Shown here piece by piece: positions 1,268 through 37,943 of a stretch of 64,000 nt of DNA (positions are counted from its first letter, which is position 1; every line of letters begins with the position of its first letter). The notes under the pieces are model-generated. The model saw only the letters and a program-made list of their open reading frames with translations, searched no databases and was not told the origin of the DNA. This DNA is from Candidatus Nomurabacteria bacterium (GTDB lineage Bacteria; Patescibacteriota; Patescibacteriia; Magasanikbacterales; UBA922). The DNA is taken from assembly GCA_020632445.1 (NCBI GenBank), contig JACKFN010000003.1, forward strand, positions 81,118 through 145,117. Direction: 5' to 3'. The translations under genes were made by a program, and so were the position numbers.

Positions 1268-1294
1268 GCAGGACATCGTAGAGGAAGTTGGAAC
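1268..1294 (+). repeat. Copy A of an imperfect 27-bp direct repeat GCAGGACATCGTAGAGGAAGTTGGAAC
   Basis: Matches copy B at 1912-1938 at 24-25 of 27 positions; both are preceded by ttct. Confidence 0.6.
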
Positions 1295-1323
1295 TGTTAT
1301 TAAAAAAAGGAAGTATTCGATTT

Positions 1324-1979: not shown

Positions 1980-3482
1980 TTACTTAATTTCCACTTTAAT
2001 ACCACATACCCCTAAAAGGTGCTCGTATATTTTTACCATCGCCCACGTGTCTTGTTTACAGTACTCCAGTAGATCATGGTAGATAGCGTCTTCATCCTCA
2101 CATTCCTCAGAAAGCATGTACTCCCATCGTTCCATAGCCTGATCACCTGCTCGAACAGACAAATCATCATAGGTTAGCTCTGGCACAAGCACAGGAAGCA
2201 CTTTCTTGATACTGGTTTTTCCTTTGAAATCTTGATGAACATATAGCTGTTTTGTAAAAATGGTTTCAAGATCAAACATCCGCTCGTTCATGTCTTCAAA
2301 AAACGGTGCGTATTCGGGGTATACTCGTGCGAGTGTTTTATTTCTTCCTTCTTCGTATGATTTGTGCCAAGAGATGATTGATCCTTTTGAACCAATATCG
2401 TCAGTAAGTTGTTCTACAAGAGAGCGTGCAATATCTGACTTTCTCTTTCTTACGAGATGATCCCTGTGTTCAATTGTCCCGTCTTCGTGCAAGATGTGAA
2501 GCGAGTACTGAAAGGGCACTTGCTCGAAAGAGCTATAACCCGTGAATTCTGGAATGGCTGTACCGTATCCTTCATAGTCAAAGAAATACAGAGGAAAGGT
2601 AAGCGTGTCGAGCTCTTCTTTTATCGTGTGCGTATCGATCAACGGTTTCTGTGATCTATACACTTCCACTTGGAGAGCTTGCTTGTCATTAAGAATAGAA
2701 ACATCGGGGATATCTTCAAGAGTAAAGATACCTTCATCCACCCAGTTTTCTATTTTCTTCTTACTGAGTCCAATTCTATGCAAATCGTGAATACTATATT
2801 CGGGAACTTGTGGATTTGAATATGCAAAGGTCGTACACTGATTTGATCTACCACGATAGATGCACTCACAACCACTACCCTCTGGCATATCCATAGAACG
2901 TTTCATATCTTCCATCTCAGCCGTTACTTCTTCCACCACTTCTGCTACCTCCTCTGTAACTTCTTCCACCATAAAGACATCTCGCCAAGAAAACGAAGAA
3001 TGTCGTTTGTACTCTCCATTCAAATGGATAATCCCACATTTTCCAATAGGAATACCAGCTTGCTCACAAACTTGCTTCTGAAAGGAAATATCTTTGATAT
3101 GGTTATGGTTCTTTTTTCGTTTTACTTCGTTTGTTGCCTTCACCTCGTATAGCTCCCATGCACTGAGGGCATCATTCCATACTAAAATATCGGCTCTGAT
3201 CAAAAAAGAATCTACTGAAATTGCAGCCTGAAAGATCACTTTTTCTTTTCGATCAATGTACTGTTTTGTATCCTCAATAGCTTCTGCTTCATGTGTCGTT
3301 ACGAGAACACCTTCTGGAAACAAGTGACGTGCTGCTTCATCAGCTATGTTACCTTCCTCAATGATCTTCTTTTCAAATTCAGATAGCTCGACACCCTCAA
3401 AAAGCTCTGGCTTATGTTTTTTAAGCCAAAGGTTTTTCTTGCAGAACAAAAATTCAAGATAGTCGGTTTTGGTTAGTTGCAT
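1980..3482 (-). CDS. DUF2779-like protein (predicted nuclease-related fold); ORF track starts at TTG 3488, ATG at 3482 preferred
   Basis: 500 aa; N-terminal YLEFLFCKKNLWL and central FPLYFFDYEGY segments recalled as DUF2779 hallmarks. Confidence 0.5.
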   Translation of the reverse strand: MQLTKTDYLEFLFCKKNLWLKKHKPELFEGVELSEFEKKIIEEGNIADEAARHLFPEGVLVTTHEAEAIEDTKQYIDRKEKVIFQAAISVDSFLIRADILVWNDALSAWELYEVKATNEVKRKKNHNHIKDISFQKQVCEQAGIPIGKCGIIHLNGEYKRHSSFSWRDVFMVEEVTEEVAEVVEEVTAEMEDMKRSMDMPEGSGCECIYRGRSNQCTTFAYSNPQVPEYSIHDLHRIGLSKKKIENWVDEGIFTLEDIPDVSILNDKQALQVEVYRSQKPLIDTHTIKEELDTLTFPLYFFDYEGYGTAIPEFTGYSSFEQVPFQYSLHILHEDGTIEHRDHLVRKRKSDIARSLVEQLTDDIGSKGSIISWHKSYEEGRNKTLARVYPEYAPFFEDMNERMFDLETIFTKQLYVHQDFKGKTSIKKVLPVLVPELTYDDLSVRAGDQAMERWEYMLSEECEDEDAIYHDLLEYCKQDTWAMVKIYEHLLGVCGIKVEIK

Positions 3483-3522
3483 ATTCAAGTAATGTTCAAT
3501 CCTCTATGGAGCTCACTATTTT

Positions 3523-4440
3523 TTAAACCATTTTTTCAATACTCTCTTTCAGCTCATCCGCCTCTGGATACCACGTCAACGTATCCAGATCATGACGAAG
3601 AGCATAAAGGTCTAATCGTCTATTGAGGTTATTAAACGCAAACAATTCTGGGGCATACTCTCTAAACCAATCTATCAGATGAGCGTAATCTTCATCTTTT
3701 ACAAACTGCTCAGCATATTCAGACATATACTTGCTTGGTAATTCTTGCATTCGCTTCACAATATCAAGAACGTAGTCAATCGAAGACACTTCAATACGCT
3801 CGAAGTCTAACATTGCGACTATCTTTCCATCTTCAACCAAGACATTATCGAAATGGGTGTCCCAATGAACAAATGCCATTTTTGCTTCATCCAAGACGCT
3901 CTGATGTTTTTCCACAAAGTCTCTAACACCTAATATAACCTCATCTACGAGAGTGTTTTCTTGTTTTAATTTTTCTAGTGAAACGTTGATTTTATCTACG
4001 ACAATCTCACGCCAAGATTTAGAAATATCTACGTCAAACTTTTCAACAAAATCATTGTATGGAGTTTCGTTTATCGCTCTGAGATGGTTACACAGTTCTT
4101 TCACAATCTGCTTCCTCTCATGTTCATCCATTTTATGCCATACGTTATACAGGTTTTCACCTTTGATCCTCGGATATACAACGTAATGCTTATCGAAGAT
4201 ACTTTTTGACGTGTCGTAAATGATAACTTCTGGTACAGGAATAGATGGTGAGAACAGTTTATACAAATAGACTTCACGAGCCATTCTATATTCGTTTCCC
4301 TCATCATCACACACTTTAAGAATGTACTTATCATCTACCGAGTACACTTTGTTTGTAAAACCGACCTCTATTTTCTTTACAGAATTAGGCTCTACAAGAT
4401 CGTTTATTTCGAATATCTTTTTTACTTTTTCTATATCCAT
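3523..4440 (-). CDS. Aminoglycoside/choline-kinase-type phosphotransferase (APH family)
   Basis: 305 aa; HWDTHFDNVLV (catalytic H-x-D-x4-N) and downstream DFE motif. Confidence 0.6.
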   Translation of the reverse strand: MDIEKVKKIFEINDLVEPNSVKKIEVGFTNKVYSVDDKYILKVCDDEGNEYRMAREVYLYKLFSPSIPVPEVIIYDTSKSIFDKHYVVYPRIKGENLYNVWHKMDEHERKQIVKELCNHLRAINETPYNDFVEKFDVDISKSWREIVVDKINVSLEKLKQENTLVDEVILGVRDFVEKHQSVLDEAKMAFVHWDTHFDNVLVEDGKIVAMLDFERIEVSSIDYVLDIVKRMQELPSKYMSEYAEQFVKDEDYAHLIDWFREYAPELFAFNNLNRRLDLYALRHDLDTLTWYPEADELKESIEKMV

Positions 4441-4444
4441 ATTT

Positions 4445-4762
4445 TTATCTAACCCAGTTTGTAACTAGATAACTCGTAGCAGTTGCAACAATTAACGGCA
4501 CAAGGATATCCCACAAAATTTTTCTTTTCCAGTCATTTCTTTTATCTATCAAAAATTGTCTTTGTAAAAGTAATTGAGCTTTTTCCGTATCGAGATACTT
4601 TATTTCACCCTCCTCCATAATCCTATCTATATAATCTCCAGCAAAGGTTTCTTGTAAATTATGTATCCTTCTTGGTTTTTCTTCTTCTATTTCCAAAAGT
4701 CTAAGCTCAACTTTTTTAAGACTTTTTGGAATATCAGGTTTGTACTCTTCTTTTTTTGACAT
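4445..4762 (-). CDS. Hypothetical small protein with C-terminal transmembrane anchor; ATG at 4762 preferred over TTG 4768
   Basis: ORF with hydrophobic C-terminus WDILVPLIVATATSYLV; upstream sequence is identical to that of the DUF2779 gene. Confidence 0.35.
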   Translation of the reverse strand: MSKKEEYKPDIPKSLKKVELRLLEIEEEKPRRIHNLQETFAGDYIDRIMEEGEIKYLDTEKAQLLLQRQFLIDKRNDWKRKILWDILVPLIVATATSYLVTNWVR

Positions 4763-4909
4763 ATTCAAGTAATGTTCATTCCCCAGTACTACTCACTATT
4801 GTTTTCTTCTGGAAAATACTTATTGTTCAATTTAGTGAGCAGAACAAAGAAGTCTGTGATATTTTTCAATTCTTCCTCAGTGAAATGTTGGGGCTGTTCA
4901 ATATCCATG

Positions 4910-7198
4910 CTAGAAGCTCAATCTCTCCCAACCCTTTGCAGTCTTTTCATGCTTATAGTCTTTTCCTGTAAACACGTGTCCGCCAGTCTTATCAAAGACA
5001 ACAATACCACCGAACAATTTCTTTTTCTTGTTGTCTGCAATATAGGCTTGAAGAGCGTCGGATTTAGCCTTTGTTTCGCCACTAGAGGCGGTAAAACCAG
5101 ACTTTGTATCAAAGATGCCTATTGATCCATCTTTCATCTGTACGACGTAATCTGGATAAAATGCATGCTCCAGTTCATCGTCTGGATGGACGTAGGCAAC
5201 GGCAAAGTACATTTCTTTACTCTCACCATTTTTGTACCACCAAGACACCTTGTCACTTTCTGATAGAACCTTTTCAAATTCTTGTTCTGGATTTGATCTT
5301 GTCTTGGATAGATAGCACGGACTCATTACGTTATTTGCCACACTGACCTTTTCATAATTTTCGTTGTAGTAATCAACATTTGGGACATCCCATGTGCACT
5401 CTCGTCTTCGCTGTTTTGCTTTGAGCTCTTTTTTGCGTACCTCTCGGAAGCGTTCTTTTGCAGCCTCAATGATCTCCAAGAAAATCTTTTGATTAACATC
5501 TGAGCACACAACAACACGCTGAATTTCTGCACGACTTTTGTCCGCATAGCCGAGGTAGCTATCAAACCAATCGTAAAATGCTTGTTGTACTTTGGTATGA
5601 GAACGAACAGGGGCAAATGGCAGTGATGCTACTTTCGCAAACAGCTCAAACTTGTATTTCAAATCATCCATCGGTACAGAGAAGTCTACCAATTCACCCA
5701 CGACATCTCGAGCACCATCGACATTATCAATAACCGCATTTGAGATCACAGGCTTGGTAAGCTCCTCGAGGTATAACTCAAGGTCTTTGTCTGCTTTTTT
5801 GTAGGCTGTGTCACCGATATCTTTTGACGTAATGCCAAATCGCTTGTTAGCTTCTTCGATAAAGAGCTTACGGAAGGTAAGAGTAAGATCACCATAATCA
5901 ACACGGCTGAGGTAGACGGACGGTAGTTTAATTGGCTCGTAATTAGCCTCTCTATGAGATGGAGAAACATTGAAAAATGTCTGACTTCCTTCGTCCTGCT
6001 TGATCTTGATCTCTCCAAGATTTGTATAGACGTATGCACTGTTCAGTACATCTGACTCGTAGTGCTTTACTTCTGGCATACGGAGTATTCGACCGACTGT
6101 TTGAATTTCAAACGTCACGCTTTTGATATCTCGGAACATCACAAGAATTTGAGCACGAGGACAATCCCAACCAAGAGCAATTGCTTGCTTGAAGATGAGC
6201 ACTTCTACATGATTATCTACTCGCTCAATACCTTGCAGGTTTTCTTTTGTGTCTGAAAGCCAAATGGCAAGTCGTCCATTGTCTACGGTAATGTCATGTT
6301 TCTTCTTCAAATACTCCTGCACCATTTCGAGCTTTGACTTATCAAGAGCACTGGTCTTTTGTGCTTCACTCGGTAGCTGGATCAGTACAAGCGGATTTAC
6401 ATCGCTCTTTTCTTTTTTATAGGCTTCTTTCAGTTCGTCACGTTGTTTGATACTGGCATCTAGGATAGCCTCATCAGCCGAGTCACAAAGGTCTTTGTAC
6501 TCTCCAATCTCTTTATTGATAATTGTCTCAGACTTAATCATTCCTTCTGCTACTACGTCACCAAATGGAACAACGATAAACCCAGCATCACCAGTCGCCA
6601 TATCTTCTGCTGTAGGCAAGATAGATGGTGTAGCAGATACCTCAATGGTGAGCTTTGGAGCAATAACATCTTTCACCAATTCTTGTGACTGGTCTGACCA
6701 GTAGTGGTGGTGGCTCTCGTCTACAATGAGGATAATTTCTCGTCCCTTTTCTTTTGTATTTCGTACAAATGTAGGCAAGTTTCTATCTTGCTCGTTATCT
6801 CGCATGAGCACGTTTGACCATGCACCTTCACGGTTTTTCTTGGTGAGGCTATGCCAATTTACAAACACAATTTCGTTCTCTTCAAATGTAGAGCGTTGTA
6901 CTTCTTCAAGATACGAAAATGTATATCGACTTTCAGAAAGATAGCTCTCGAGCTTTTCTTTACTTTGTGAATGCAAATCATGTGAGCTAATCCAAATGAA
7001 GGCGAATTCTTTGCTTCCTACATATTCTCGAGAGAATTGCTGGAGAAAGTCTGCCATCATAATGGTCTTTCCTGATCCAGTCGGGGCTTTGAATACACAA
7101 ATCTTTTCTCCCTGTTTATCAAGGAGTTTTTTGGCTTGAAAGAGTAGCTTATCTACTGCTGTTTTTTGATATGTTTTTAATCTCATCATATTAGGCAA
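4910..7198 (-). CDS. res: Type III restriction enzyme Res subunit (SF2 helicase plus C-terminal PD-(D/E)xK-like nuclease)
   Basis: Walker A APTGSGKT, DEAH-like VDESHH, C-terminal PDYVVQMKDG; 8-bp overlap with the upstream mod gene. Confidence 0.75.
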   Translation of the reverse strand: MPNMMRLKTYQKTAVDKLLFQAKKLLDKQGEKICVFKAPTGSGKTIMMADFLQQFSREYVGSKEFAFIWISSHDLHSQSKEKLESYLSESRYTFSYLEEVQRSTFEENEIVFVNWHSLTKKNREGAWSNVLMRDNEQDRNLPTFVRNTKEKGREIILIVDESHHHYWSDQSQELVKDVIAPKLTIEVSATPSILPTAEDMATGDAGFIVVPFGDVVAEGMIKSETIINKEIGEYKDLCDSADEAILDASIKQRDELKEAYKKEKSDVNPLVLIQLPSEAQKTSALDKSKLEMVQEYLKKKHDITVDNGRLAIWLSDTKENLQGIERVDNHVEVLIFKQAIALGWDCPRAQILVMFRDIKSVTFEIQTVGRILRMPEVKHYESDVLNSAYVYTNLGEIKIKQDEGSQTFFNVSPSHREANYEPIKLPSVYLSRVDYGDLTLTFRKLFIEEANKRFGITSKDIGDTAYKKADKDLELYLEELTKPVISNAVIDNVDGARDVVGELVDFSVPMDDLKYKFELFAKVASLPFAPVRSHTKVQQAFYDWFDSYLGYADKSRAEIQRVVVCSDVNQKIFLEIIEAAKERFREVRKKELKAKQRRRECTWDVPNVDYYNENYEKVSVANNVMSPCYLSKTRSNPEQEFEKVLSESDKVSWWYKNGESKEMYFAVAYVHPDDELEHAFYPDYVVQMKDGSIGIFDTKSGFTASSGETKAKSDALQAYIADNKKKKLFGGIVVFDKTGGHVFTGKDYKHEKTAKGWERLSF

Positions 7199-8987
7199 AG
7201 AGTTTACGATAGACTTCTAAAATACTCTCTGGGATAGGACAAAGTGTATGATCTACCGAGAGATCAGCAAAGTCATCCTCGAACGTGTCGTGAGAGAGTG
7301 AAAAAATGTACAAGTGTGCAGGCATGTCTTTTGCATCCACCTTTTCTTTGAATTCCTTTACCGAATCAAGATCGAACAATATACCCGTAAGGTGATCATT
7401 GTTTTTATAGACTTTGTACTTTTTGTTGTCGTAGATTTTCTTGTACGTCCCTTCCTTTACACAGATCATCTCTGTAGACTTCTTCACGAGTTCTCTACGG
7501 GTATCGTCTGATACTTCCGATTGCTTTACGAATGTTGTTTTGAAATAACGTAGATTTGCAGGAATACCTTCTACATCTGCATAGCCTTCAATGACGTTTT
7601 CTACACGAGGGTATGTTACTTCCTCAGCAATACCGTTTTCGTTATTGGTACAAAGTATAAACTGACGATTGCCTCCATCTTGCTTGTTTAGTTCTAGAAC
7701 AGCGTGAGCAGTCGTTCCAGAACCTGCAAAAAAGTCTAGTATAGTAACTTTTTTATTTTTCTGTGCTTTCGAAACTTTCAACGTATCAATCACGGCGTAT
7801 AAAGACTTTGGATAATCAAAAACTTTCTCTCCACCAAACAAATTTTTTAGCATGTTCGTTCCATGAGAGGAAGCATCGTACAAAGAATCGACCCATATTG
7901 TTTTTGGTTTCCTTCCTGATTTTGTCCTATCTTTCAAATAGACTGAATATGATCCTTTTACTTTTTTCACTACAAATTCTCCCTCCGCAGCATTTCTTAA
8001 AATCTTCTCTCTATCTGACCATCTCCAGACCCTTCTTTTACCATTTGAGTCAATAGGCATGATCATGTTTATGTTCGGGTAAGACTTCCTAAAATCTTCA
8101 ATGGAACATTCTTCGATTGAGCCTTTTTTACCATACACAAACACTGTGTCCGTTTTGTATTGATCTTTGTAGCTTCCTATCCTCGATCCACCAACCCCTA
8201 CAATCTTTTTGTGCTTCGGTTCAAAAGCAATAAAAAATTCTGAATTAGGACGATCTTTTGGAACAGATAGTCCGCCACTTCGTCTAAATGGGAGTAGCCT
8301 ATAGTTCGAAGTTTCATCTTCAAGTCCAAAATTCTTTTTCTGTTCATCTGTAAGAGGTAAATCAAAAACCTTTGATTTACTACTTCTTCCGTACATCAGA
8401 ATATACTCATGAGATGTGGCAAAATTTTTGTTTGTAGTTCTACCACGTGGGTTAATTTCAATTGCCACTATACCCATTCTATTTTCTTCACCAAAAATTT
8501 CATCTAGCAATAGCCCAATTTGAAAAATTTCATAATCATCAATGGTAAGAAAAAGGACACCGTCTTCTTTAAGAAGATTTTTTGATGCCTCAATTCTTTT
8601 TGCCATCATGGATAGCCACTTCGAATGCCTATACGGATCATCACTGTCTACATAGTCGTTGTTGTATCTCCAAGAATTGTTACCAGTATTATACGGAGGA
8701 TCAATATAAATAACATCTACCTTTCCAGCGTGCGTGTAATTCAAAACAGACAACGCATGATAGTTGTCTCCCTCAATCAATAGATTGGTGACTCCATTTT
8801 CATCCTTTTCAAGGGTACGTTCAGCTACTTCTTCGAGTACAGGTAGATGTTCTTTGCATTTTTCTACTACATCCTCGGGCTTATCTTCCCAGACCAGCCC
8901 ATATTTTTTTCTGCTTTGTAATTGTTCAACGAGCTCGAGAAGCTCTTCTTTGTTCATGTTTTTGTAATTCTTCATAGTAATGTTCAT
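7191..8987 (-). CDS. mod: Type III R-M Mod subunit (beta-class N6-adenine DNA methyltransferase)
   Basis: DPPY motif IV (IYIDPPYNTGN) precedes the AdoMet motif I FFAGSGTTAHAV; mod then res order is typical of Type III systems. Confidence 0.8.
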   Translation of the reverse strand: MNITMKNYKNMNKEELLELVEQLQSRKKYGLVWEDKPEDVVEKCKEHLPVLEEVAERTLEKDENGVTNLLIEGDNYHALSVLNYTHAGKVDVIYIDPPYNTGNNSWRYNNDYVDSDDPYRHSKWLSMMAKRIEASKNLLKEDGVLFLTIDDYEIFQIGLLLDEIFGEENRMGIVAIEINPRGRTTNKNFATSHEYILMYGRSSKSKVFDLPLTDEQKKNFGLEDETSNYRLLPFRRSGGLSVPKDRPNSEFFIAFEPKHKKIVGVGGSRIGSYKDQYKTDTVFVYGKKGSIEECSIEDFRKSYPNINMIMPIDSNGKRRVWRWSDREKILRNAAEGEFVVKKVKGSYSVYLKDRTKSGRKPKTIWVDSLYDASSHGTNMLKNLFGGEKVFDYPKSLYAVIDTLKVSKAQKNKKVTILDFFAGSGTTAHAVLELNKQDGGNRQFILCTNNENGIAEEVTYPRVENVIEGYADVEGIPANLRYFKTTFVKQSEVSDDTRRELVKKSTEMICVKEGTYKKIYDNKKYKVYKNNDHLTGILFDLDSVKEFKEKVDAKDMPAHLYIFSLSHDTFEDDFADLSVDHTLCPIPESILEVYRKLFA

Positions 8988-8995
8988 TGTTTCGG

Positions 8996-9181
8996 TTACG
9001 ACTGATCTTCAATGAAAGCAAGAATGTCTTCTTTCTTGTATCTTCGATCTCCTCGAGAGCCAAACCGTATGGCTTTGAGTTTTCCCTCGTTATCCCACTT
9101 TCGTAGTGTATTGGGATGACAGTTCAATATCTCACATGCCTCCTTTAGCGTGAGCAATTGAGGCATTTTTTGCATGTCCAT
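8996..9181 (-). CDS. Excisionase/AlpA-type helix-turn-helix DNA-binding protein
   Basis: 61 aa; LTLKEACEILNCHPNTLRKWDNEGKL matches the excisionase-family HTH pattern. Confidence 0.55.
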   Translation of the reverse strand: MDMQKMPQLLTLKEACEILNCHPNTLRKWDNEGKLKAIRFGSRGDRRYKKEDILAFIEDQS

Positions 9182-9262: not shown

Positions 9263-10411
9263 ATGGACAGAATGCCAAACTTTTTGCGGAAGCTGTCGCC
9301 AGCAATGCTGAACGCCTACTGCAAACATAAAAATATAGACTTTACTGTCTCTCCCAAAGAGAAGGATACGGAAAAGATCAAACAGAGCTTCATAGAATGT
9401 TGGGAAAAGCTGGAATATACGGAACGCAATGAGGTTGAAATAGACTTTGGTGCGACCGAGGAGCTCATGTCTAACACAGGATGTGGGCTGCTCCATGATC
9501 TTGCCGTACAAAAGAAAAAAACAATCCCAAAAGAATGGGATAACATGACTACGGCTGACAAGGCTTTGTGGTTTTACCTAAACGATCCTGAAACATTTCG
9601 AGAAGGAGCACTAAGATATGTAGTAGAAAACGCACAAGGTTGGATGACATTCCGAGCTGATGCAGAGTTACCTACAGCAGATTTGGATGCCCGTGTTGGA
9701 AAACTGCAACAACAAATGCAGAAGTATCTCTATGCAAAAGAGAGACGAGGGGCACTTTGTAAAATAGACATGATACAGAAAGACAACTATGTCTGTTTTG
9801 TTGCAAATCCTCAGAATTACCCAAAACGAGAGCCCGAATATGATGAGAAAACAAAGGAGCTCAACAAGGCAACCAGCATAAAACCAATCTATCAACTTTA
9901 CTTCCTATATCGATCGGACGACCAAACATTGAGCATTAAATCTCGATATAGAAAAAACAAGAAGCAAGATTTGGCAAATATGTTTGGTAATCATGTGCTC
10001 AACGTACCCCTTCTGGGAGATAAAATCATCTCGTACAATCTTGATCTGTTGTTAGACCCAGAATTCGAAATGAAAAAGCCACTTGGTCTCGAAAAAGTAG
10101 TACTCAAAAGAGTGCGTCTCAAATCTCGCAGGAACTTCAAACATTCTATCCAGTTAGACCTTGGTACATTAGACGATGGTATAGAACCTCTACGAGAACA
10201 ATTACGTTTGTATAACATAAACCCAACATTCTTTGAGGTGGCTACAGCTACCATGACGTTTTACTTCCAACGACCGAAAGACCCCCGATACAAAAATCAG
10301 AGGTTCGACGTAACTGTTGAGCTGTCAAAACCTCACAGATGTACCTTCAAAAATCGTGATCTGGATGATAAAGCAAGAACAGTATTACATGATTGGGGTA
10401 TTGTGAATTGA
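9263..10411 (+). CDS. Hypothetical protein of unknown function (382 aa), first gene of a two-gene cassette
   Basis: Long ORF with no recognisable motifs; a 2-bp gap to the next gene suggests translational coupling. Confidence 0.5.
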   Translation: MDRMPNFLRKLSPAMLNAYCKHKNIDFTVSPKEKDTEKIKQSFIECWEKLEYTERNEVEIDFGATEELMSNTGCGLLHDLAVQKKKTIPKEWDNMTTADKALWFYLNDPETFREGALRYVVENAQGWMTFRADAELPTADLDARVGKLQQQMQKYLYAKERRGALCKIDMIQKDNYVCFVANPQNYPKREPEYDEKTKELNKATSIKPIYQLYFLYRSDDQTLSIKSRYRKNKKQDLANMFGNHVLNVPLLGDKIISYNLDLLLDPEFEMKKPLGLEKVVLKRVRLKSRRNFKHSIQLDLGTLDDGIEPLREQLRLYNINPTFFEVATATMTFYFQRPKDPRYKNQRFDVTVELSKPHRCTFKNRDLDDKARTVLHDWGIVN

Positions 10412-10412
10412 T

Positions 10413-11351
10413 ATGGTTTTTTCATCCGCAATATCTCTCTTGCACCACAATGAACGTATCCCTCGAGAAGAAATTGAAAAGTATATAAGCAAGGGCATAA
10501 TTGCACATTTGCGAAAGCAGGGTGTATTAAAAGAGAGCGACACACTGTCACACATAACTTGCCAAGAGTGCAACGAATGTCTGTGTGAGGTGGAATCTTT
10601 TGATGGTGGCGTTCGAGCATATTGTGAAACATATAACAGTTTTTACGATCTACCAGAGTCATATTCGCAACCCTCATACAAATTCGACACAAACGGCTTC
10701 CTATCTCTTCTCAAAGAACAATTCGATATCAAAGGTTCGACTGAAAAAATAAGCACCAATTTTTTTAACATCGGTTATCTCAGTACAGATCATACACACA
10801 TATTTTTTTCCTTTGATGATGACCAAAACAACCACTCGCAAGATATAGACCGAATCCTTGGATCAAACGGGAAAGCACTTATTGTTGTACCATTTTCTGC
10901 TTCGCAGTATACGTATACGGGAAACCGTGTTCGACCAGTAAGCTTGGACAGTGTTGGAAAATTTACTTCTCGTGCAATATCTTGGGATAAGGAAGAGTTT
11001 GAGTACATTGTAGAAAGTACCTTTCGTAGTGTTGAGTTTACTCTGCATGGAGAGCTCAAACACAACGGGGTAATTTTACGAGACTATGCCTCGGGGACGA
11101 ACCAATATGCTTTCCTCAAGACATTGTTTGATAGCTTCGGTAGAACGGTTACAAATGAAACGCTTTTTGATAATGCAAAAAAGACAGTACCAAACTTTAG
11201 ATATACCAGTCCGTCATCTTTCGCAGAGAAAACAAAGTCTAACATCTGCAATAAAGACAAGGAAACCAAAGATATTGTGGAAAAGATCATTGTTCCTGCG
11301 AGTGCAGCGGGATCAAAAAAAGGCTACAGAATGACAAATCCTCAAGCATAA
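10413..11351 (+). CDS. Hypothetical protein (312 aa) with an N-terminal Cys cluster (CQECNECLC...C), second gene of the cassette
   Basis: ORF; only a putative zinc-ribbon-like Cys cluster is recognisable. Confidence 0.5.
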   Translation: MVFSSAISLLHHNERIPREEIEKYISKGIIAHLRKQGVLKESDTLSHITCQECNECLCEVESFDGGVRAYCETYNSFYDLPESYSQPSYKFDTNGFLSLLKEQFDIKGSTEKISTNFFNIGYLSTDHTHIFFSFDDDQNNHSQDIDRILGSNGKALIVVPFSASQYTYTGNRVRPVSLDSVGKFTSRAISWDKEEFEYIVESTFRSVEFTLHGELKHNGVILRDYASGTNQYAFLKTLFDSFGRTVTNETLFDNAKKTVPNFRYTSPSSFAEKTKSNICNKDKETKDIVEKIIVPASAAGSKKGYRMTNPQA

Positions 11352-11352
11352 T

Positions 11353-11392
11353 GTCAGCAATCCGTCAGCGATTGTCAGCAAAATGTCCGCAA
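11353..11392 (+). promoter_or_regulatory. Iteron-like array: four direct repeats GTC(A/C)GC(A/G)A starting at 11353, 11364, 11374 and 11385 (10-11 bp phasing)
   Basis: Read directly in the sequence; begins 2 bp after the stop of the upstream gene. Confidence 0.55.
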
Positions 11393-11411
11393 CAACCTAC
11401 CTTAGAATAGA

Positions 11412-11435
11412 ATCACGGTAACCCGTGATTTTTCG
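11412..11435 (+). terminator. Hairpin ATCACGG-TAAC-CCGTGAT followed by TTTTCG; terminator-like or operator inverted repeat
   Basis: Perfect 7-bp inverted repeat plus T-run; the motif aaCCGTGAT recurs at 11455-11463. Confidence 0.4.
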
Positions 11436-11488
11436 TTGCAACGTCAAACAAAGGAAACCGTGATGTTTATCAATTAACATTACGACTT

Positions 11489-11764
11489 ATGACTAAAGAA
11501 CATTCCTACGTTCCCTTTCTTGAGGACTACCCAAATCCATTTTCAAGCTACGACATTGGCATGTGTGCGGGCTTGGTAAGCGTTGGCTACCAGCTTCTAC
11601 ACATAGACAAGTCAAAGGGAGCAAAAGCACTTTTCCTCTTTGAAAACAGCGATGAGATTGTTGAATCCGCTCAACAATACTGGCGAGGAGAATTGCAGGT
11701 CGATGCACTTGCGTACTTCAACGCACTCAAGAATATCAAGAACCAGTTGTACTCACAGCGATAG
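11489..11764 (+). CDS. Hypothetical small protein (91 aa)
   Basis: ORF only; lies within the element between the iteron array and the primase. Confidence 0.3.
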   Translation: MTKEHSYVPFLEDYPNPFSSYDIGMCAGLVSVGYQLLHIDKSKGAKALFLFENSDEIVESAQQYWRGELQVDALAYFNALKNIKNQLYSQR

Positions 11765-12248: not shown

Positions 12249-14438
12249 ATGGAATTTCAGACAATTACCATTAGCCAATATCTCAAAGAAAAAGGGATGG
12301 AATTTGTGGAGCGAAATGGTGAGATAGTAACACGATGCGTATTCAATGACTGCGACGCTGATAGCAGAGCAAACGAGGCTCACCTATATTTTGATGCAGA
12401 GACAGGACAGTACGATTGCAAAAAATGTGGTGAACAAGGAAACATAATTACACTCGCAAGACATCTTGGTGACACACTTGAAGATGTAGCAAAAGAAAAA
12501 ACACAGCCCAGTAAAAAACGGAAGAAAAACGGTATAACCATTACGGACGTTGAAAGATGTCACAAAGCTCTTCCAGATCGAATACGAGAGTACCTGCACG
12601 ATCGAGGAATTACAGACGAGCTTATCTCGCACTTCAAACTAGGCTGGGGTGAATTTTATGGTTCACAATGGATCACCATACCTATCAAAGATATTGATGG
12701 GAATTTTTCGTTCTTCAAATTACGGCGTGACCCTGACCAAGAAACCGAAGACGGAAAATATCGGTTCTACCCTGCTGGAAGTAAAGCAACGCTCTTTGGC
12801 TGGGATATGCTCAAAGGTAACACGGACATGATCGTGATCTGTGAGGGAGAATTCGATGCAATACTTCTCACCAGCCTTGGTATCCCCACACTAACATCTA
12901 CCGCAGGGGCAGGAACATTCAAAGACGAGTGGATACCGCATTTGAAAAACTTGAAAAACATTCACATTTGCTTTGACAAAGATGACGCTGGAGCGAAAGG
13001 AGTAGAAAAGCTGGTAGCACAGCTCGATACGCATTTGAGTAAGACCGCAATACACCAGATAACATTGCCAGATCGAATGACTGACGGAAAGGACGTTACT
13101 GATTACATAACCAAGCACAACGGAAACCCAGATGAACTACTGAAAGAATGCTCAAAACAAGTTGCAGGAAGACAGCCCATTGATACGTCTAAATTCAAAC
13201 CACTCACCTCAGATGATGTTGTTCGAGTGCTCGGGCTGACAATCAAGAAAGATGAAGAGAACAAGCTCATCACGTTTCTTTGTGCATTGTCTGCATATAC
13301 TGAGCAATCCCAATTCAATCTGAGCTTCAATGCTCCGTCTTCCACGGGAAAAAGTTTTATCCCTATGGAAGTATCGACACTCTTTCCTACAGAAGACGTA
13401 ATGAAGCTCGGTGACTGCTCACCAAAGGCGTTTTTTCACGAACAAGGAGAATACGACAAAGAGAGCAACACGATGCTTGTTGATCTATCGAGAAAGATAC
13501 TTATATTCCTTGATCAGCCACACAATAGCTTGCTCGAACGTCTTCGTTCACTCTTATCTCACGATCAGAAAGAGATGATCTCAAAGATTACAGACAAGAA
13601 CAGAAAAGGTGGAAACCAGACAAAGACAGTTATCCTTCGTGGGTATCCTGCTGTTATCTTTTGTAGTGCTGGATTGAAGATAGACGAACAAGAAAGTACT
13701 CGGTTTATTCTTCTCTCCCCACAAACGAGCCAAGAGAAACTGCGGTTTTCAATCCAAGAAAAGATCAAGAAGGAGTCTGACTACGAAACGTATCGAGATG
13801 ATCTCAATGCTAATCCAGAACGAGCACTACTCAAAGAGCGAATTGAGGCAATCAAAGATGAGGCGATTGATGAAATACGCATTGAAAACCCAGAATTGAT
13901 AGAACAAGAATTTTTCTCTAAACGTGCAAAGCTGAAGCCTCGTCACCAACGTGACATTGGTCGGCTGATGGGGCTTACAAAGATATTTGCTCTCCTGAAT
14001 GTCTGGTTTCGAGAACGTGAAGGCTCAACAATCGTGGCAACAAAAGAAGACTTTGAAGAAGCACTCAAGCTCTGGAACAAGATATCCGAAAGCCAAGAAT
14101 ACAATCTTCCTCCATACGTGTATGAGCTATACAAGGATGTTATTGTCCCAGCATACGATGAAAAAAATGCGTTTGGGCTTGCTGCTGATCCTTCAGGAAT
14201 TACAAGAAAAGAGATACTGCAAAAGCACTATGAGGTATATGGACGTATGGTACAGGACTGGCAAATGAGACAGCAGATCATACCGATGCTAGAAACGGCA
14301 GGTCTCATATCACAAGACCCTGATCCTGATGACAAACGGCGTATTCTTATTACCCCTACAGACAAACTCACTACTTCCACAGACTCTGAAAAAGATATAG
14401 TGAGCGACACTGGGGACGTAGGTACAATTTCCCTGTAA
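12249..14438 (+). CDS. Phage/plasmid-type DNA primase: CHC2 zinc finger plus TOPRIM plus C-terminal P-loop domain
   Basis: CVFNDCDADSR...CKKCG zinc finger; TOPRIM MIVICEGEFDAILL; Walker-A-like APSSTGKSF. Confidence 0.75.
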   Translation: MEFQTITISQYLKEKGMEFVERNGEIVTRCVFNDCDADSRANEAHLYFDAETGQYDCKKCGEQGNIITLARHLGDTLEDVAKEKTQPSKKRKKNGITITDVERCHKALPDRIREYLHDRGITDELISHFKLGWGEFYGSQWITIPIKDIDGNFSFFKLRRDPDQETEDGKYRFYPAGSKATLFGWDMLKGNTDMIVICEGEFDAILLTSLGIPTLTSTAGAGTFKDEWIPHLKNLKNIHICFDKDDAGAKGVEKLVAQLDTHLSKTAIHQITLPDRMTDGKDVTDYITKHNGNPDELLKECSKQVAGRQPIDTSKFKPLTSDDVVRVLGLTIKKDEENKLITFLCALSAYTEQSQFNLSFNAPSSTGKSFIPMEVSTLFPTEDVMKLGDCSPKAFFHEQGEYDKESNTMLVDLSRKILIFLDQPHNSLLERLRSLLSHDQKEMISKITDKNRKGGNQTKTVILRGYPAVIFCSAGLKIDEQESTRFILLSPQTSQEKLRFSIQEKIKKESDYETYRDDLNANPERALLKERIEAIKDEAIDEIRIENPELIEQEFFSKRAKLKPRHQRDIGRLMGLTKIFALLNVWFREREGSTIVATKEDFEEALKLWNKISESQEYNLPPYVYELYKDVIVPAYDEKNAFGLAADPSGITRKEILQKHYEVYGRMVQDWQMRQQIIPMLETAGLISQDPDPDDKRRILITPTDKLTTSTDSEKDIVSDTGDVGTISL

Positions 14439-14541: not shown

Positions 14542-15171
14542 ATGGGAAGATACTACTGGAACAAAAAAGACGAAGCAGATGACTGCAAAAAAATAGAAAT
14601 ATGGACACTCAAGAAATGGGGCTATCTTGATACGTCCTTTCGTTCGGGAACAATCACATGGACGCACGGATACAGCGGAAACAAAAGTAGTGTGGGTATA
14701 CAAAGTGTTATGTGGAAGGACGAGGGGCAGTATATCCGCATACACTATACCCAGACAGACTGGCGTACCGAGGAAAAGACAGACTTCGACTACCAAATAC
14801 CGCTCACCACAACAGAATGTCACTTCGGAGGTATACGCTACTGGTTTCGCTGTCCGTGGTACAAAAATGGTGTCTATTGTGGCAGACGTGTTGGTGTGAT
14901 CTACAAAAACGGAGATTACTTTGCCTGTAGACACTGTTACGAGCTGTCATACGCCAGCAGAAACGAGAACCGAAAACATGCGTTGTCTGGACTCGGCAGA
15001 ATGCTTGATCTGGAACGAAAAATAGAAAAGCTCCAAGAAGAAATAACCACTCCATTCTACAATGGACGACCAACAAGAAAATATCGAAGGCTTATAGAGC
15101 TAAAAAGGCAATACTATGGCTTTGATGCAGAAAAAGTCTTGAGAGATATGGATAGAATGCTTGGTTCGTGA
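14542..15171 (+). CDS. Hypothetical zinc-ribbon protein (209 aa)
   Basis: Cys cluster CHFGGIRYWFRCPWYKNGVYCGRRV...CRHC; located immediately upstream of the recombinase. Confidence 0.4.
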   Translation: MGRYYWNKKDEADDCKKIEIWTLKKWGYLDTSFRSGTITWTHGYSGNKSSVGIQSVMWKDEGQYIRIHYTQTDWRTEEKTDFDYQIPLTTTECHFGGIRYWFRCPWYKNGVYCGRRVGVIYKNGDYFACRHCYELSYASRNENRKHALSGLGRMLDLERKIEKLQEEITTPFYNGRPTRKYRRLIELKRQYYGFDAEKVLRDMDRMLGS

Positions 15172-15313: not shown

Positions 15314-16918
15314 ATGGATTACCATGACAATAAACAATACAAATACTTTCTCTATGCGAGAAAATCATCGGAAAGCGAAGACCGACAAGTCCAATCAATC
15401 GATGATCAAACTGATCGGCTAAAAGAGCTGGCACAAACGCTCGGTATTACCATAAAACAGATATTTACTGAGGCAAAATCAGCGAAGAAGCCAAACAATA
15501 GACCAGTCTTCACAGAAATGATGGAACGGATCGAAGCTGGAGAAGCTGATGGGATACTATGTTGGCAGATCAATCGTCTTTCACGCAATCCAATTGATAG
15601 TGCTCAGATACAGTGGCTACTACAGAAAAAAGTGCTCAAGTCTATCCAAACCATTGATCGTGAATACAGACCAGAAGACAATGTGCTTCTCTTCAATGTT
15701 GAAAGTGGAATGGCGAATCAGTTTATCCTTGATCTCAGCAAGAATGTAAAACGTGGAAACTTGTGCAAGGTAAAAAATGGGTGGAAACCCGGTCTTGCAC
15801 CTATTGGATATTTGAATGAACTGGAAAACCATACCATAATCCCTGACCCTGAACGATTTGATCTCATACGTAGAGCATGGGACTACATGCTGACAGGAAA
15901 CTATACCGTTCCCCAAATACACAAGATGCTCAATGACGACTGGGGCTTCCGAACAAAGAAAAGAAAACGATCTGGAGGTAAACCAGTAGCACTGAGCAGT
16001 ATGTACAAGATATTCAGCAATATCTTCTATGCTGGTGTACTTCTTTACGATGGCAAGGAGTATGCAGGAAAACACAAAACAATGATCACGCTTGAAGAGT
16101 ATGACCAAGTGCAGGTTATTCTCGGAAAAAAAGGAAAACCAAGACCAAAGACGTATACCTTTGCCTTTACTGGCATGATTAGATGTGGTGAGTGTGGCTG
16201 TAGTATCACTGCGGAAAAGAAGAAAAAGTTTATCAAGAGCGAGCAAGAACTTCGCTACTACACGTACTATCACTGCACTCGTAGAAAACGAGAAGTAAAT
16301 TGCTCGCAAAGAAAATCGATCAGTGAGACAACCTTAGAAAACCTGATATTAGAAGAAGTCGGCAAGCTGACCATTCTTCCAGAGTTTTTTGATTGGGCTA
16401 TGGAAGCACTGAACCAAGATAATGATAATGAGATTGTGGATCGAACCAAGATATACGAAATGCAACACCAGTCTCTGACGAAAACACAAAAAGAGCTCGA
16501 TAATCTCACCAAAATGAGATACAGAGAGCTGATTGACGATGAAATGTTTATCAAAGAGAGCGAGGAGCTCAAAGCAAAAATCAAAAAGCTACAGCAAGAA
16601 CTTCGGGAAACTGAGAAACGTGCAGAAGATTGGCTCGAGCTCACAGAAAAGGCATTTCACTTTGCCAGATACGCACGAGAACACTTTGATGGCGGTAGTA
16701 TTGAGGAAAAAAAGGAAGTACTGAGCGGATTAGGTTCGAACTTTTTGCTAAAAGACCAAAAACTAGATATTTCCCTTCACAGTTACTTTGAACCGATAAA
16801 AAACGGGTATAAAACGCTTGAAGCTGAGTATCTAGCGTTAGAACCAAACAAATTTGCCTCAACAAAAGTAAAAACAGAGGCTTTGACCTCTGTCATTACA
16901 CGTTGGCAGGCGAGGTAG
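15314..16918 (+). CDS. Large serine recombinase (resolvase catalytic domain, recombinase domain, zinc ribbon, coiled coil); putative integrase of the element
   Basis: YARKSSESEDRQVQSIDDQ catalytic region; CGECGCS...HCTRRKREVNC zinc ribbon; 3' end overlaps the tRNA-Trp 3' end. Confidence 0.8.
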   Translation: MDYHDNKQYKYFLYARKSSESEDRQVQSIDDQTDRLKELAQTLGITIKQIFTEAKSAKKPNNRPVFTEMMERIEAGEADGILCWQINRLSRNPIDSAQIQWLLQKKVLKSIQTIDREYRPEDNVLLFNVESGMANQFILDLSKNVKRGNLCKVKNGWKPGLAPIGYLNELENHTIIPDPERFDLIRRAWDYMLTGNYTVPQIHKMLNDDWGFRTKKRKRSGGKPVALSSMYKIFSNIFYAGVLLYDGKEYAGKHKTMITLEEYDQVQVILGKKGKPRPKTYTFAFTGMIRCGECGCSITAEKKKKFIKSEQELRYYTYYHCTRRKREVNCSQRKSISETTLENLILEEVGKLTILPEFFDWAMEALNQDNDNEIVDRTKIYEMQHQSLTKTQKELDNLTKMRYRELIDDEMFIKESEELKAKIKKLQQELRETEKRAEDWLELTEKAFHFARYAREHFDGGSIEEKKEVLSGLGSNFLLKDQKLDISLHSYFEPIKNGYKTLEAEYLALEPNKFASTKVKTEALTSVITRWQAR

Positions 16919-16977
16919 GAATCGAACCCACGCAATTGGTTTTGGAGACCAATGTACTACCACTATACGACTCGCCC
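16905..16977 (-). tRNA. tRNA-Trp (anticodon CCA), 73 nt with encoded CCA
   Basis: The reverse complement folds as a cloverleaf: acceptor stem GGGCGAG/CTCGCCT, anticodon loop CTCCAAA, T-loop GGTTCGATTCC. Confidence 0.75.
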
Positions 16978-34584: not shown

Positions 34585-34611
34585 GCCGACCTGTGGTAGG
34601 TACAGGTCGGC
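34585..34611 (-). terminator. GC-rich hairpin GCCGACCTGT-ggtaggt-ACAGGTCGGC immediately 3' of the island gene (T-run about 20 nt further on)
   Basis: Perfect 10-bp inverted repeat read directly; non-canonical spacing to the U-tract. Confidence 0.4.
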
Positions 34612-34648
34612 GCCGTTGGTGGGGTAGCTCGCCGTGACGAGTGGCGGA

Positions 34649-37669
<3,021 letters not shown>

Positions 37670-37943
37670 CCGATCTGAACACCATCAACACTTCAAACTT
37701 CATCCCCGACACTCAAAGTGGTGCGTGTAGGGTGATTTCGTATCTGACCTGATTGCCAGAGTAAACGAAACACGCTTGGGGTCCCAGCCCTGCAACCGCC
37801 CTTTTCGCTATGAGCGGAAGGAGCTGGGCAGGCACCAACTGACATTTGATCAGCTTATGCCTGCCTGCAGGGTGGAAAAGTTCAAAGAATTTTGAAATTT
37901 TTTGTAAAGATCCTGTATTGCACGTATTGTACAATAACAGGTA

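What the first reader, a model, noticed from the sequence alone, without database searches (positions are those of the whole stretch)
9263..11351. Two-gene cassette of unknown function next to the Type III R-M system on the element: candidate defence or anti-defence module
A 382-aa and a 312-aa protein (the second has an N-terminal Cys cluster) are separated by 2 bp and transcribed divergently from the excisionase-HTH-mod-res block. I recognise no catalytic motifs in either. Defence-island logic (R-M neighbour, mobile-element cargo, tight coupling) makes this the best place in the window to look for an undescribed phage-defence or counter-defence system. They could equally be structural or replication accessory proteins of the element.
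Basis: inference. Interest (0 to 1): 0.65.

Follow-up and report, generated by a model that had tools for sequence, protein, structure and literature searches.

The report
DNA-binding gene pair anchoring a mobile island
The two unknown genes are real and form a widespread, always-paired DNA-binding module (a ring-clamp-like protein plus a zinc-finger/winged-helix protein) that looks like backbone of small integrating islands, with interchangeable phage-defence systems next to it, rather than a defence system itself.

Summary
Both ORFs exist as described: 9263-10411 (382 aa) and 10413-11351 (312 aa), 1 nt apart, divergent from an HTH_17-mod-res operon. Neither matches Pfam, NCBIfam or PADLOC.

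- **ORF1:** its high-confidence AlphaFold model has an RdgC/CENP-N-type fold. This is fold-level only; there is no sequence homology to RdgC.
- **ORF2:** no conserved catalytic-type residues. It has a 4-Cys zinc ribbon, an alpha/beta middle domain and a C-terminal OmpR/PhoB-type winged helix.
- **Distribution:** ORF1 has 377 cluster representatives and hits in 342 species genomes across many phyla.
- **Pairing:** an ORF2-like gene lies directly downstream in 169 of 177 loci, and natural fusions exist.
- **Architecture:** the layout is polar. Variable defence cargo lies 5' of ORF1 (Type I/III/IIG/IV R-M, Druantia, IetAS, Hma, Cas). AlpA/HTH_17, primase-helicase and integrase lie 3' of ORF2.
- **Here:** the island ends with a serine recombinase abutting tRNA-Trp.
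- **Conserved non-coding DNA:** four phased GTCAGY repeats follow ORF2.

Best reading: an island backbone module in which ORF2 binds the repeats and recruits ORF1 to control the excision/replication operon. That mechanism is inferred. The defence interpretation is not supported, though it is not excluded.

The parts
9263..10411 (+). ORF1, 382 aa: N-terminal helical domain (about aa 1-125) plus an RdgC/CENP-N-type alpha/beta fold. Founding member here of an uncharacterised family.
   Evidence: ORF list. AF2 pLDDT 96, pTM 0.90. Foldseek PDB top hits are RdgC 2owl/2owy, E 8e-5, prob 1.0, TM 0.30-0.41, then CENP-N/L. BFVD hits are phage 'recombination-associated protein' entries. 377 representatives at E<=1e-3. 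phrog_37634, unknown function.
10413..11351 (+). ORF2, 312 aa: small N-terminal helical region, 4-Cys zinc ribbon (C50/C53.../C71), alpha/beta middle domain, C-terminal OmpR/PhoB-type winged helix (about aa 205-310).
   Evidence: AF2 pLDDT 87, pTM 0.77. Foldseek PDB hits NsrR, VicR, YycF, OmpR, ToxR and CadC DNA-binding domains, prob 0.99-1.0, TMt 0.6-0.69. At least 7 of 75 homologues carry MarR_2 and 6 carry IclR winged helices, with single GntR, PaaX and HTH_24 hits. C53 and C71 are invariant.
11353..11390 (+). Array of four direct repeats GTC(A/C)GC at 11353, 11364, 11374 and 11385 (spacing 11, 10, 11 nt), starting 2 nt after the ORF2 stop. Candidate ORF2 binding site.
   Evidence: 0 of 200 shuffles reach 4 copies in 50 bp. 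The repeats are conserved in L001 and L002. Different phased repeats occupy the same place in L005 and L008. The family-wide enrichment has p=1.4e-6.
11411..11435 (+). Hairpin AATCACGG-taac-CCGTGATT followed by a T-run: terminator-like end of the ORF1-ORF2 transcript. A conserved -35-like TTGCAA follows at 11437-11442.
   Evidence: RNA fold z = -4.5. Invariant in L001 and L002. TTGCAA occurs within 160 nt after ORF2 in 21% of loci against 5% of controls, and 14 of the 27 sites lie at +80-100 nt. The consensus scan did not call this hairpin a terminator.
8996..9181 (-). HTH_17/MerR-type small DNA-binding protein (excisionase/AlpA-like), first gene of the divergent HTH-mod-res operon.
   Evidence: Pfam HTH_17 4e-15. 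Same position in L001, L005 and L008.
7191..8987 (-). Type III R-M methyltransferase (mod): cargo in the hotspot 5' of ORF1.
   Evidence: Pfam N6_N4_Mtase. PADLOC MTase_III 2e-87.
4910..7198 (-). Type III R-M res subunit (SF2 helicase): cargo.
   Evidence: Pfam ResIII and Helicase_C. PADLOC REase_III 7e-20.
11489..11764 (+). DUF5659 small protein, first gene after the repeat/hairpin region. It occupies the slot that AlpA-like genes fill in other clades.
   Evidence: Pfam DUF5659 4e-10. Follows ORF2 in L001, L002, L006 and L008.
12249..14438 (+). Toprim primase (729 aa): island replication gene.
   Evidence: Pfam Toprim_2. PHROG DNA primase 8e-34.
15314..16918 (+). Large serine recombinase (integrase) at the island's right end.
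   Evidence: Pfam Resolvase, Recombinase and Zn_ribbon_recom. PHROG integrase 9e-73.
16904..16977 (-). tRNA-Trp abutting and overlapping the recombinase gene end: integration site.
   Evidence: ARAGORN. Rfam tRNA, 63.9 bits.

Best explanation
The cassette is the conserved leading operon of the backbone of a small site-specific integrative island. In the window the layout is: cargo, ORF1, ORF2, DUF5659, primase, serine recombinase, tRNA-Trp.

Proposed mechanism:
1. ORF2 is a non-enzymatic, sequence-specific DNA binder with a zinc ribbon and a winged helix.
2. It recognises the helically phased direct repeats that lie immediately 3' of its own gene.
3. It recruits or loads ORF1 onto the island's own DNA. 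ORF1 has an RdgC-type fold, known from proteins that bind DNA non-specifically as rings or clamps.
4. The complex sits upstream of the promoter of the next operon (AlpA/DUF5659, primase, integrase). It therefore acts as the switch or maintenance factor for excision and replication of the island.
5. The Type III R-M system next door is interchangeable cargo in a hotspot that abuts ORF1.

Shown: the genes, their strict pairing and occasional fusion, the folds, the polar synteny, the cargo diversity and the conserved repeats.

Inferred: ORF2 binding to the repeats, the ORF1-ORF2 complex, ring formation and the regulatory outcome.
For: Pairing:
- An ORF2-like gene lies directly downstream on the same strand in 169 of 177 loci. 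Most of the rest are cut by a contig end. Typical overlaps are -4 and -8 nt.
- Natural fusions exist: P0014 and P0044. ORF2 aligns to P0044 residues 403-687 with E = 4e-22.

Folds:
- ORF1 matches the RdgC/CENP-N fold with prob 1.0.
- The ORF2 C-terminus matches OmpR-type winged helices with prob 0.99-1.0 and TMt 0.6-0.69.
- Other clades carry MarR or IclR winged helices instead.
- No catalytic-type residue is invariant in ORF2.

Polar synteny:
- An integrase lies downstream in 34 of 59 loci but upstream in 5 of 56.
- R-M or SF2-helicase genes lie upstream in 39 of 56 loci and downstream in at most about 8 of 59 (res 5, HsdM 2, mod 1, HsdS 1).
- Backbone genes lie downstream in 43 of 59 loci.
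- An AlpA-like or DUF5659 gene directly follows ORF2 in 54 of 96 loci (Pfam identities).

Cargo: the upstream genes are of many types and lie in both orientations.

Cis element:
- GTCAGY occurs four times at 10-11 nt spacing.
- The non-coding stretch has 85% mean column identity in elements whose proteins are only 47-67% identical to the window's.
- Phased repeats are enriched after ORF2 (59% against 37%, p = 1.4e-6).
- A -35-like TTGCAA occurs within 160 nt after ORF2 in 21% of loci against 5% of controls (p = 1e-7), most often at +80-100 nt.

Other:
- Two copies occur on one contig (L046 and L047), and the serine recombinase abuts a tRNA.
- tBLASTN with three query proteins found no phage or plasmid match.
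Against: - There is no experimental or interaction evidence, and no multimer model could be run.
- The similarity to RdgC is fold-level only, with low TM-scores (0.30-0.41) and no sequence signal (hhalign prob 0.1; no Pfam hit in 116 members).
- 16 of 59 loci with enough sequence show no mobility or replication gene downstream. The pair can therefore persist without the backbone.
- The repeat statistics come from phylogenetically related loci, and the window motif was chosen after seeing it.
- A terminator-like hairpin lies between the repeats and the putative promoter, which is unusual for an activator site.
- ORF1 family pI is near neutral (median 6.3), so there is no obvious global basic character.
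Confidence: 0.4

Rival explanations
1. Origin-binding replication initiator module. ORF2 binds iterons placed just 3' of its gene, as in the SaPI rep-ori arrangement (recalled from memory, not checked here). ORF1 acts as a clamp or loader-like accessory for the island's primase-helicase.
For: Iteron-like phased repeats lie directly after ORF2. A Toprim primase lies 0.9 kb downstream in the window, and primase or helicase genes are present in 20 of 59 loci. Winged-helix proteins are typical iteron binders (general knowledge). RdgC-fold proteins are DNA rings (PMC11077077).
Against: Only 20 of 59 loci have any primase or helicase. Whole clades (ORF1-ORF2-HTH155-Tyr integrase) have none. No obvious AT-rich unwinding element follows the repeats. 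Neither ORF has an ATPase or helicase domain.
Confidence: 0.2
2. Regulator of the adjacent defence cargo, analogous in role to BrxR- or CapW-type regulators. ORF2 is the transcription factor and ORF1 a DNA- or damage-sensing partner. Together they tune expression of whatever defence system sits in the hotspot.
For: Defence systems of many kinds lie directly 5' of ORF1 in most loci: 39 of 56 have R-M or SF2-helicase genes, and others have IetAS, Druantia, Hma, Type IV or Cas. The pair persists next to such genes even where no backbone is found downstream. ORF2 carries a winged helix. A published precedent shows regulators co-localising with diverse defence systems (PMC9122601, title and abstract seen).
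Against: Cargo orientation relative to ORF1 varies between co-directional and divergent. The conserved repeats lie on the far side of the pair, facing the backbone operon and not the cargo. No GTCAGY cluster occurs in the ORF1/HTH_17 intergenic region or near mod and res. In the window the R-M operon has its own HTH_17 first gene.
Confidence: 0.15
3. A stand-alone anti-phage or exclusion system of the Rex type. ORF1 would be a RexA-like sensor of phage DNA or recombination intermediates and ORF2 its partner.
For: Lambda RexA has the RdgC fold and is a non-specific DNA binder in an exclusion system (PMC11077077). The pair sits on a mobile element amid defence genes. The two genes are tightly coupled.
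Against: No PADLOC hit. RexA is not among the top 50 PDB matches. ORF2 is a soluble winged-helix protein, not a membrane or enzymatic effector. No conserved catalytic-type residues. The pair keeps a fixed polar position in front of AlpA, primase and integrase, rather than the shuffled contexts typical of defence genes. tBLASTN with three query proteins found nothing in phage or plasmid collections.
Confidence: 0.12

Closest known systems
RdgC (E. coli recombination-associated / nucleoid-associated protein, PDB 2OWL/2OWY) and phage RdgC-like proteins
   Same: It is the best structural match to ORF1: Foldseek E 8e-5, prob 1.0, about 320 aligned columns. Phage 'recombination-associated protein' models match likewise. 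The fold is known to form DNA-encircling dimers that bind DNA non-specifically (PMC11077077).
   Different: There is no sequence homology (hhalign prob 0.1; no Pfam RdgC hit in 116 members). TM-scores are only 0.30-0.41. ORF1 is about 80 aa longer, with an extra N-terminal helical domain. It is always paired with, and sometimes fused to, a winged-helix partner, and it is encoded on integrative islands rather than as a solitary chromosomal gene.
Lambda RexA (of the RexAB exclusion system)
   Same: It is an RdgC-fold DNA-binding protein encoded by a mobile element as part of a two-gene module. RexA also modulates a genetic switch (CI/Cro) independently of RexB (PMC11077077).
   Different: RexA is not among the top 50 PDB hits. 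The partner here is a soluble zinc-ribbon/winged-helix protein, not a membrane protein like RexB. The genomic position is in front of AlpA, primase and integrase, not in a prophage immunity region.
OmpR/PhoB-family effector domains (Trans_reg_C), including one-component relatives ToxR and CadC
   Same: The ORF2 C-terminal ~105 aa superpose on these winged helices (prob 0.99-1.0, TMt 0.6-0.69). The adjacent DNA carries direct repeats at 10-11 nt spacing. That is the site geometry this family uses (textbook knowledge, not tested here).
   Different: There is no Pfam Trans_reg_C or Response_reg hit. The N-terminus carries a zinc ribbon and there is no phospho-acceptor receiver domain or cognate kinase. 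In other clades the winged helix is of the MarR or IclR type.
Minimal integrase-AlpA-primase islands and phage satellites with defence hotspots (PICMI, PICI, P4-like)
   Same: The backbone logic is the same: integrase at the att site, an AlpA/HTH_17 regulator, a Toprim/DUF3987 primase and a variable hotspot carrying R-M and other defence systems (PMC10803314).
   Different: ORF1 and ORF2 are not among the PICMI genes listed in the passages read (int, alpA, prim, iolg, up1, up2, fis). The window element uses a serine recombinase and DUF5659, and lacks fis and a DUF3987 primase. Helper-phage dependence is unknown. The host range includes CPR bacteria and Planctomycetota.

Membership tests
RdgC family (Pfam PF04381) | Sequence match to the RdgC profile | tested here: not met
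   No Pfam hit for ORF1 or for any of 116 family members. hhalign of the family profile against E. coli RdgC gives prob 0.1. Profile search of PDB sequences finds no RdgC.
RdgC family (Pfam PF04381) | RdgC three-dimensional fold (base, centre and tip domains) | tested here: inconclusive
RdgC family (Pfam PF04381) | Ring-shaped homodimer with a basic DNA-binding pore | not testable with these tools
   No multimer prediction or access to model coordinates. Family pI is near neutral.
Lambda RexAB-type exclusion system | RexA-like protein plus a multi-pass membrane partner (RexB) | tested here: not met
   RexA is absent from the top 50 PDB matches. ORF2 models as a soluble globular protein with a winged helix.
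OmpR/PhoB response regulators | C-terminal winged-helix effector domain | tested here: met
   Met at fold level: Foldseek prob 0.99-1.0, TMt 0.6-0.69 to about 100-aa DNA-binding domains. No Pfam Trans_reg_C hit.
OmpR/PhoB response regulators | N-terminal receiver domain with phospho-acceptor Asp, and a partner histidine kinase | tested here: not met
   No Response_reg hit. No invariant Asp in the family. No kinase gene in the locus.
Known anti-phage defence systems (PADLOC-DB v2.0) | HMM match of either protein to a catalogued defence protein | tested here: not met
   0 families for ORF1 and ORF2 at E <= 0.1. Neighbours mod and res do match Type III R-M.
Integrase-AlpA-primase integrative islands / minimalist satellites | Site-specific recombinase at an att site, a small HTH_17/AlpA protein and a Toprim primase on one small element | tested here: met
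   Serine recombinase 15314-16918 abuts tRNA-Trp. HTH_17 at 8996-9181 and Toprim primase at 12249-14438. The same trio recurs 3' of the pair in other phyla.
Integrase-AlpA-primase integrative islands / minimalist satellites | Helper-phage-induced excision and packaging (satellite lifestyle); for PICMI specifically, integration at fis and a DUF3987/DUF5906 primase | not testable with these tools
   Only 8 hits in 2.9 million IMG/VR contigs. The window element has no fis or DUF3987. Induction needs experiments.

The most novel reading that the evidence does not exclude
ORF1-ORF2 is a previously unrecognised two-protein DNA-sensing switch. An RdgC/RexA-fold clamp would detect foreign or damaged DNA, such as that of an infecting phage. 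Through its winged-helix partner it would then fire the island's excision-replication programme, the neighbouring defence cargo, or both. That would make it a pan-phylum trigger module for satellite-like defence islands, or itself a Rex-like exclusion system.
Probability: 0.15. Interest if true: 0.75.

Novelty: new variant of a known kind. Interest (0 to 1): 0.5.

Why it matters
- **An undescribed protein pair.** The pair is widespread yet has no Pfam, NCBIfam or PADLOC model. It extends the RdgC/RexA/CENP-N fold, known from DNA-binding proteins, to a family that is obligately paired with a winged-helix protein.
- **A landmark for defence discovery.** Directly 5' of ORF1 lies a hotspot that already holds Type I/III/IIG/IV R-M, Druantia, IetAS, Hma and Cas genes. 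It also holds large proteins with no PADLOC match. ORF1 can therefore serve as an anchor for finding new defence systems in poorly studied phyla such as CPR/Patescibacteria and Planctomycetota.
- **A handle on island control.** If the proposed mechanism holds, it would show how minimal integrase-AlpA-primase islands control excision and replication.

Tried and rejected
- **Single-sequence searches:** Pfam, NCBIfam, PADLOC and PDB-sequence searches with the two proteins found nothing. The word-indexed protein search found only 2-4 close homologues, even with a profile for ORF2.
- **Phage, plasmid and E. coli collections:** tblastn against phages and plasmids found no match, including with a gammaproteobacterial ORF1. 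blastn against E. coli genomes also found none.
- **Locus retrieval:** A 30-sequence sub-alignment worked.
- **Sequence link to RdgC:** a PDB profile search with the ORF1 and ORF2 profiles found nothing meaningful. hhalign of the ORF1 profile against E. coli RdgC showed no signal.
- **R-M-specific partnership:** I first considered a specific functional link to Type III R-M, because the first six contexts all had mod and res. I rejected it after the wider census showed many cargo types in both orientations.
- **Left island boundary:** not found. No att-like direct repeat was detected, which may reflect the very short crossover sites of serine recombinases (general knowledge).
- **Terminator call:** the promoter/terminator consensus scan did not call the hairpin at 11411-11435.
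- **Literature:** searches for RdgC-like defence or island modules found only the RexA and YejK structure papers.
Full report
**1. Observation**

The window holds ORF 9263..10411 (+, 382 aa) and ORF 10413..11351 (+, 312 aa).
- They are separated by one nucleotide (TGA-t-ATG), not two.
- ORF2 has the reported Cys cluster (C50, C53, C56, C58, C71).
- On the other strand, an HTH_17/MerR-type gene (8996-9181) is followed after 9 nt by a Type III mod (7191-8987) and then res (4910-7198).
- Identical proteins are annotated as hypothetical in a 147,920-bp Candidatus Nomurabacteria (CPR) contig.
- The 67%-identical homologue P0002 starts at the residue equivalent to M4, so the true ORF1 start may be 9272.

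**2. The element around the pair**

Downstream on the + strand lie:
- a DUF5659 gene (11489-11764);
- a 78-aa ORF;
- a 729-aa Toprim primase (12249-14438);
- a 209-aa unknown ORF;
- a large serine recombinase (15314-16918), whose end overlaps tRNA-Trp (16904-16977, minus strand).

This is a small integrative island inserted at a tRNA gene. The left part carries cargo: a DUF2779/Cas4-like nuclease, an APH-type kinase and the Type III R-M. I could not place the left boundary.

**3. What the proteins are**

Neither protein hits Pfam, NCBIfam or PADLOC. ORF1 matches only phrog_37634, which has unknown function.

*ORF1*
- An exhaustive HMM search found 377 cluster representatives at E <= 1e-3, nearly all 380-410 aa.
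- With 116 of them as the alignment, AlphaFold gave pLDDT 96 and pTM 0.90.
- The best Foldseek matches in the PDB are E. coli RdgC (E 8e-5, prob 1.0). CENP-N and CENP-L follow; their yeast homologues IML3 and CHL4 are described as structural relatives of RdgC/RexA (PMC11077077).
- In the viral library the best matches are phage 'recombination-associated protein' entries.
- TM-scores are low (0.30-0.41) and there is no sequence signal. The assignment is therefore fold-level only.
- Published structures show this fold in proteins that bind DNA non-specifically as rings or clamps. They include RdgC and lambda RexA, with a weaker resemblance in YejK (PMC11077077, PMC11229321).
- Family-conserved positions include RG162-163, C166, an 'AYPEDY' motif (ANPQNY in the window protein), F241, P357, C360 and a C-terminal WGI.

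*ORF2*
- It has only three close homologues in the indexed search. Its model is nevertheless good (pLDDT 87, pTM 0.77).
- The C-terminal ~105 residues superpose on OmpR/PhoB-type winged helices: NsrR, VicR, YycF, OmpR, ToxR and CadC (prob 0.99-1.0, TMt 0.6-0.69).
- ORF2-like proteins from distant loci instead hit MarR_2, IclR, GntR or PaaX winged helices.
- Across 75 homologues only Cys53 and Cys71 are invariant. C50, W89 and G121 are nearly so.
- This pattern fits a zinc ribbon in a non-enzymatic DNA-binding or adaptor protein.

**4. The two genes are one unit**

- I assembled 177 loci (140 non-redundant) from genomes, metagenomes and IMG/VR.
- An iteratively built ORF2 HMM finds a gene directly downstream of ORF1, on the same strand, in 169 of them. 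Most of the remainder are cut by a contig end. Typical overlaps are -4 and -8 nt.
- Two representatives (P0014 at 698 aa and P0044 at 687 aa) are natural ORF1-ORF2 fusions. ORF2 aligns to P0044 residues 403-687 with E = 4e-22.

**5. Context census**

A single peptide pattern retrieved 342 confirmed hits in GTDB species genomes. The phyla include Planctomycetota, Gammaproteobacteria, Desulfobacterota, Acidobacteriota, Cyanobacteria, a Bacillota genus and Paceibacterota. It also retrieved at least 574 hits in metagenomes and 8 in IMG/VR.

The architecture is polar:

| Feature | 3' of the pair | 5' of the pair |
|---|---|---|
| Integrase (Tyr or Ser) | 34 of 59 loci | 5 of 56 loci |
| R-M or SF2-helicase genes | at most about 8 of 59 | 39 of 56 |
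| Primase or helicase (Toprim, AAA_25, DUF3987) | 20 of 59 | not counted |
| Any backbone gene | 43 of 59 | not counted |

An AlpA, HTH_17 or DUF5659 gene directly follows ORF2 in 54 of 96 loci.

The cargo 5' of ORF1 lies in either orientation and is diverse. PADLOC identifies Type I, III, IIG and IV restriction, an HmaB-like methylase, DruE (Druantia), IetA/IetS, HKD-Snf2/DrmD-like helicases and Cas4-Cas1. My first six contexts all had Type III R-M, which briefly suggested a specific partnership. The wider census rejects that. ORF1 marks the edge of a defence-cargo hotspot.

Sixteen of 59 loci show no backbone gene downstream, so the pair can outlive, or exist without, the mobility genes.

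tblastn of the window proteins and of a gammaproteobacterial ORF1 finds nothing in 50,697 phage or 72,556 plasmid records.

**6. A conserved cis element**

- Two nucleotides after the ORF2 stop there are four GTC(A/C)GC repeats at 11353, 11364, 11374 and 11385. None of 200 shuffles reaches four copies in 50 bp.
- A hairpin with a T-run follows (11411-11435; fold z = -4.5), and then a -35-like TTGCAA.
- This non-coding stretch has 85% mean column identity in L001 and L002, whose ORF1 and ORF2 proteins are only 47-67% identical to the window's.
- More distant loci have different phased repeats at the same place: CATGGAC three times in L005, TTCACCAGAT twice in L008, and GCGCGGT twice plus an inverted copy in a planctomycete clade.
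- Family-wide, 59% of the 80-nt stretches after ORF2 carry phased direct repeats, against 37% of the 3' flanks of other genes (p = 1.4e-6).
- TTCGAA-type promoter signal: TTGCAA occurs within 160 nt after ORF2 in 21% of loci against 5% of controls (p = 1e-7). Fourteen of the 27 sites lie at +80-100 nt.
- Caveats: the loci are related to one another, and the window motif was chosen after inspection.

**7. Mechanism**

The best-supported reading is an island backbone module:
1. ORF2 binds the repeats sequence-specifically.
2. It recruits or loads the RdgC-fold ORF1 onto the island's own DNA.
3. The complex sits just upstream of the promoter of the AlpA/DUF5659-primase-integrase operon and controls excision and replication.

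The folds, pairing, synteny and repeats are shown. Binding, complex formation and the regulatory outcome are inferred. Confidence is 0.4.

Rivals:
- **Origin-binding initiator (0.2).** It is weakened because only 20 of 59 loci have a primase or helicase.
- **Regulator of the neighbouring defence cargo (0.15).** It is weakened by variable cargo orientation and by repeats that face away from the cargo.
- **Rex-like stand-alone defence system (0.12).** It is weakened by the lack of any effector, by no PADLOC hit, and by the fixed synteny.

**8. Comparison and novelty**

The closest known entities are:
- RdgC and lambda RexA, for the ORF1 fold only;
- OmpR/PhoB effector domains, for the ORF2 C-terminus only;
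- minimal integrase-AlpA-primase islands such as PICMIs, PICIs and P4-like satellites with defence hotspots, for the element as a whole (PMC10803314).

The pair fails sequence-level membership in all of these protein families. It is not among the PICMI genes listed in the passages I read.

I rate it a new variant of a known kind: an uncharacterised, pan-phylum DNA-binding pair on a known type of island. It is not a new defence system. Interest is moderate at 0.5. The main practical value is as an anchor for mining the adjacent hotspot. The main scientific value is as a candidate control module for such islands.

Noticed in passing
window 34600-37700: A block of 68-70% GC sits in a genome of about 41% GC. 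It consists of one 1006-aa ORF (34649..37669, minus strand) with eight MopE metal-binding repeats and an FGE-sulfatase domain. It looks like very recent horizontal transfer or an assembly chimera.
   Followed up: partly
window 3480-3524 and 4760-4804: A 45-nt direct repeat (80% identity) spans the start codons and leaders of the DUF2779 nuclease gene and the 107-aa ORF. This suggests a shared promoter/leader or a duplicated cassette junction.
   Followed up: no
window 1268-1307 and 1912-1951: A 40-nt direct repeat (80% identity) flanks the 159-aa PNPOx-like ORF. It may lie near the island's undetermined left edge.
   Followed up: no
window 4910-7198 (-): The Type III res subunit is short (762 aa). 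It shows ResIII and Helicase_C but no recognisable endonuclease domain in Pfam. The res of locus L006 (888 aa) does have RE_endonuc.
   Followed up: no
window 1980-4440 (-); L006 172-2522: A DUF2779/Cas4-like nuclease gene lies in the cargo region both here and in the distantly related island L006. Its neighbour is an APH-type kinase here and a DUF5655 protein in L006. This may be a further cargo module.
   Followed up: no
L026:17779-21159, L039, L027, L042 (cluster c48): Large proteins of 1011-1141 aa recur around the pair and have no PADLOC match (5' of ORF1 in L039 and L027, 3' in L026 and L042). They are candidate unknown defence genes.
   Followed up: partly
window 14542-15171 (+): A 209-aa ORF between the primase and the recombinase has no Pfam hit. 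It recurs in 12 loci, so it is probably another backbone gene.
   Followed up: partly
L046 and L047 (contig CAZSYN010000003.1): Two copies of the ORF1-ORF2 module, with similar upstream gene sets, lie about 60 kb apart on one Phycisphaeraceae contig. This fits a multi-copy mobile element.
   Followed up: no
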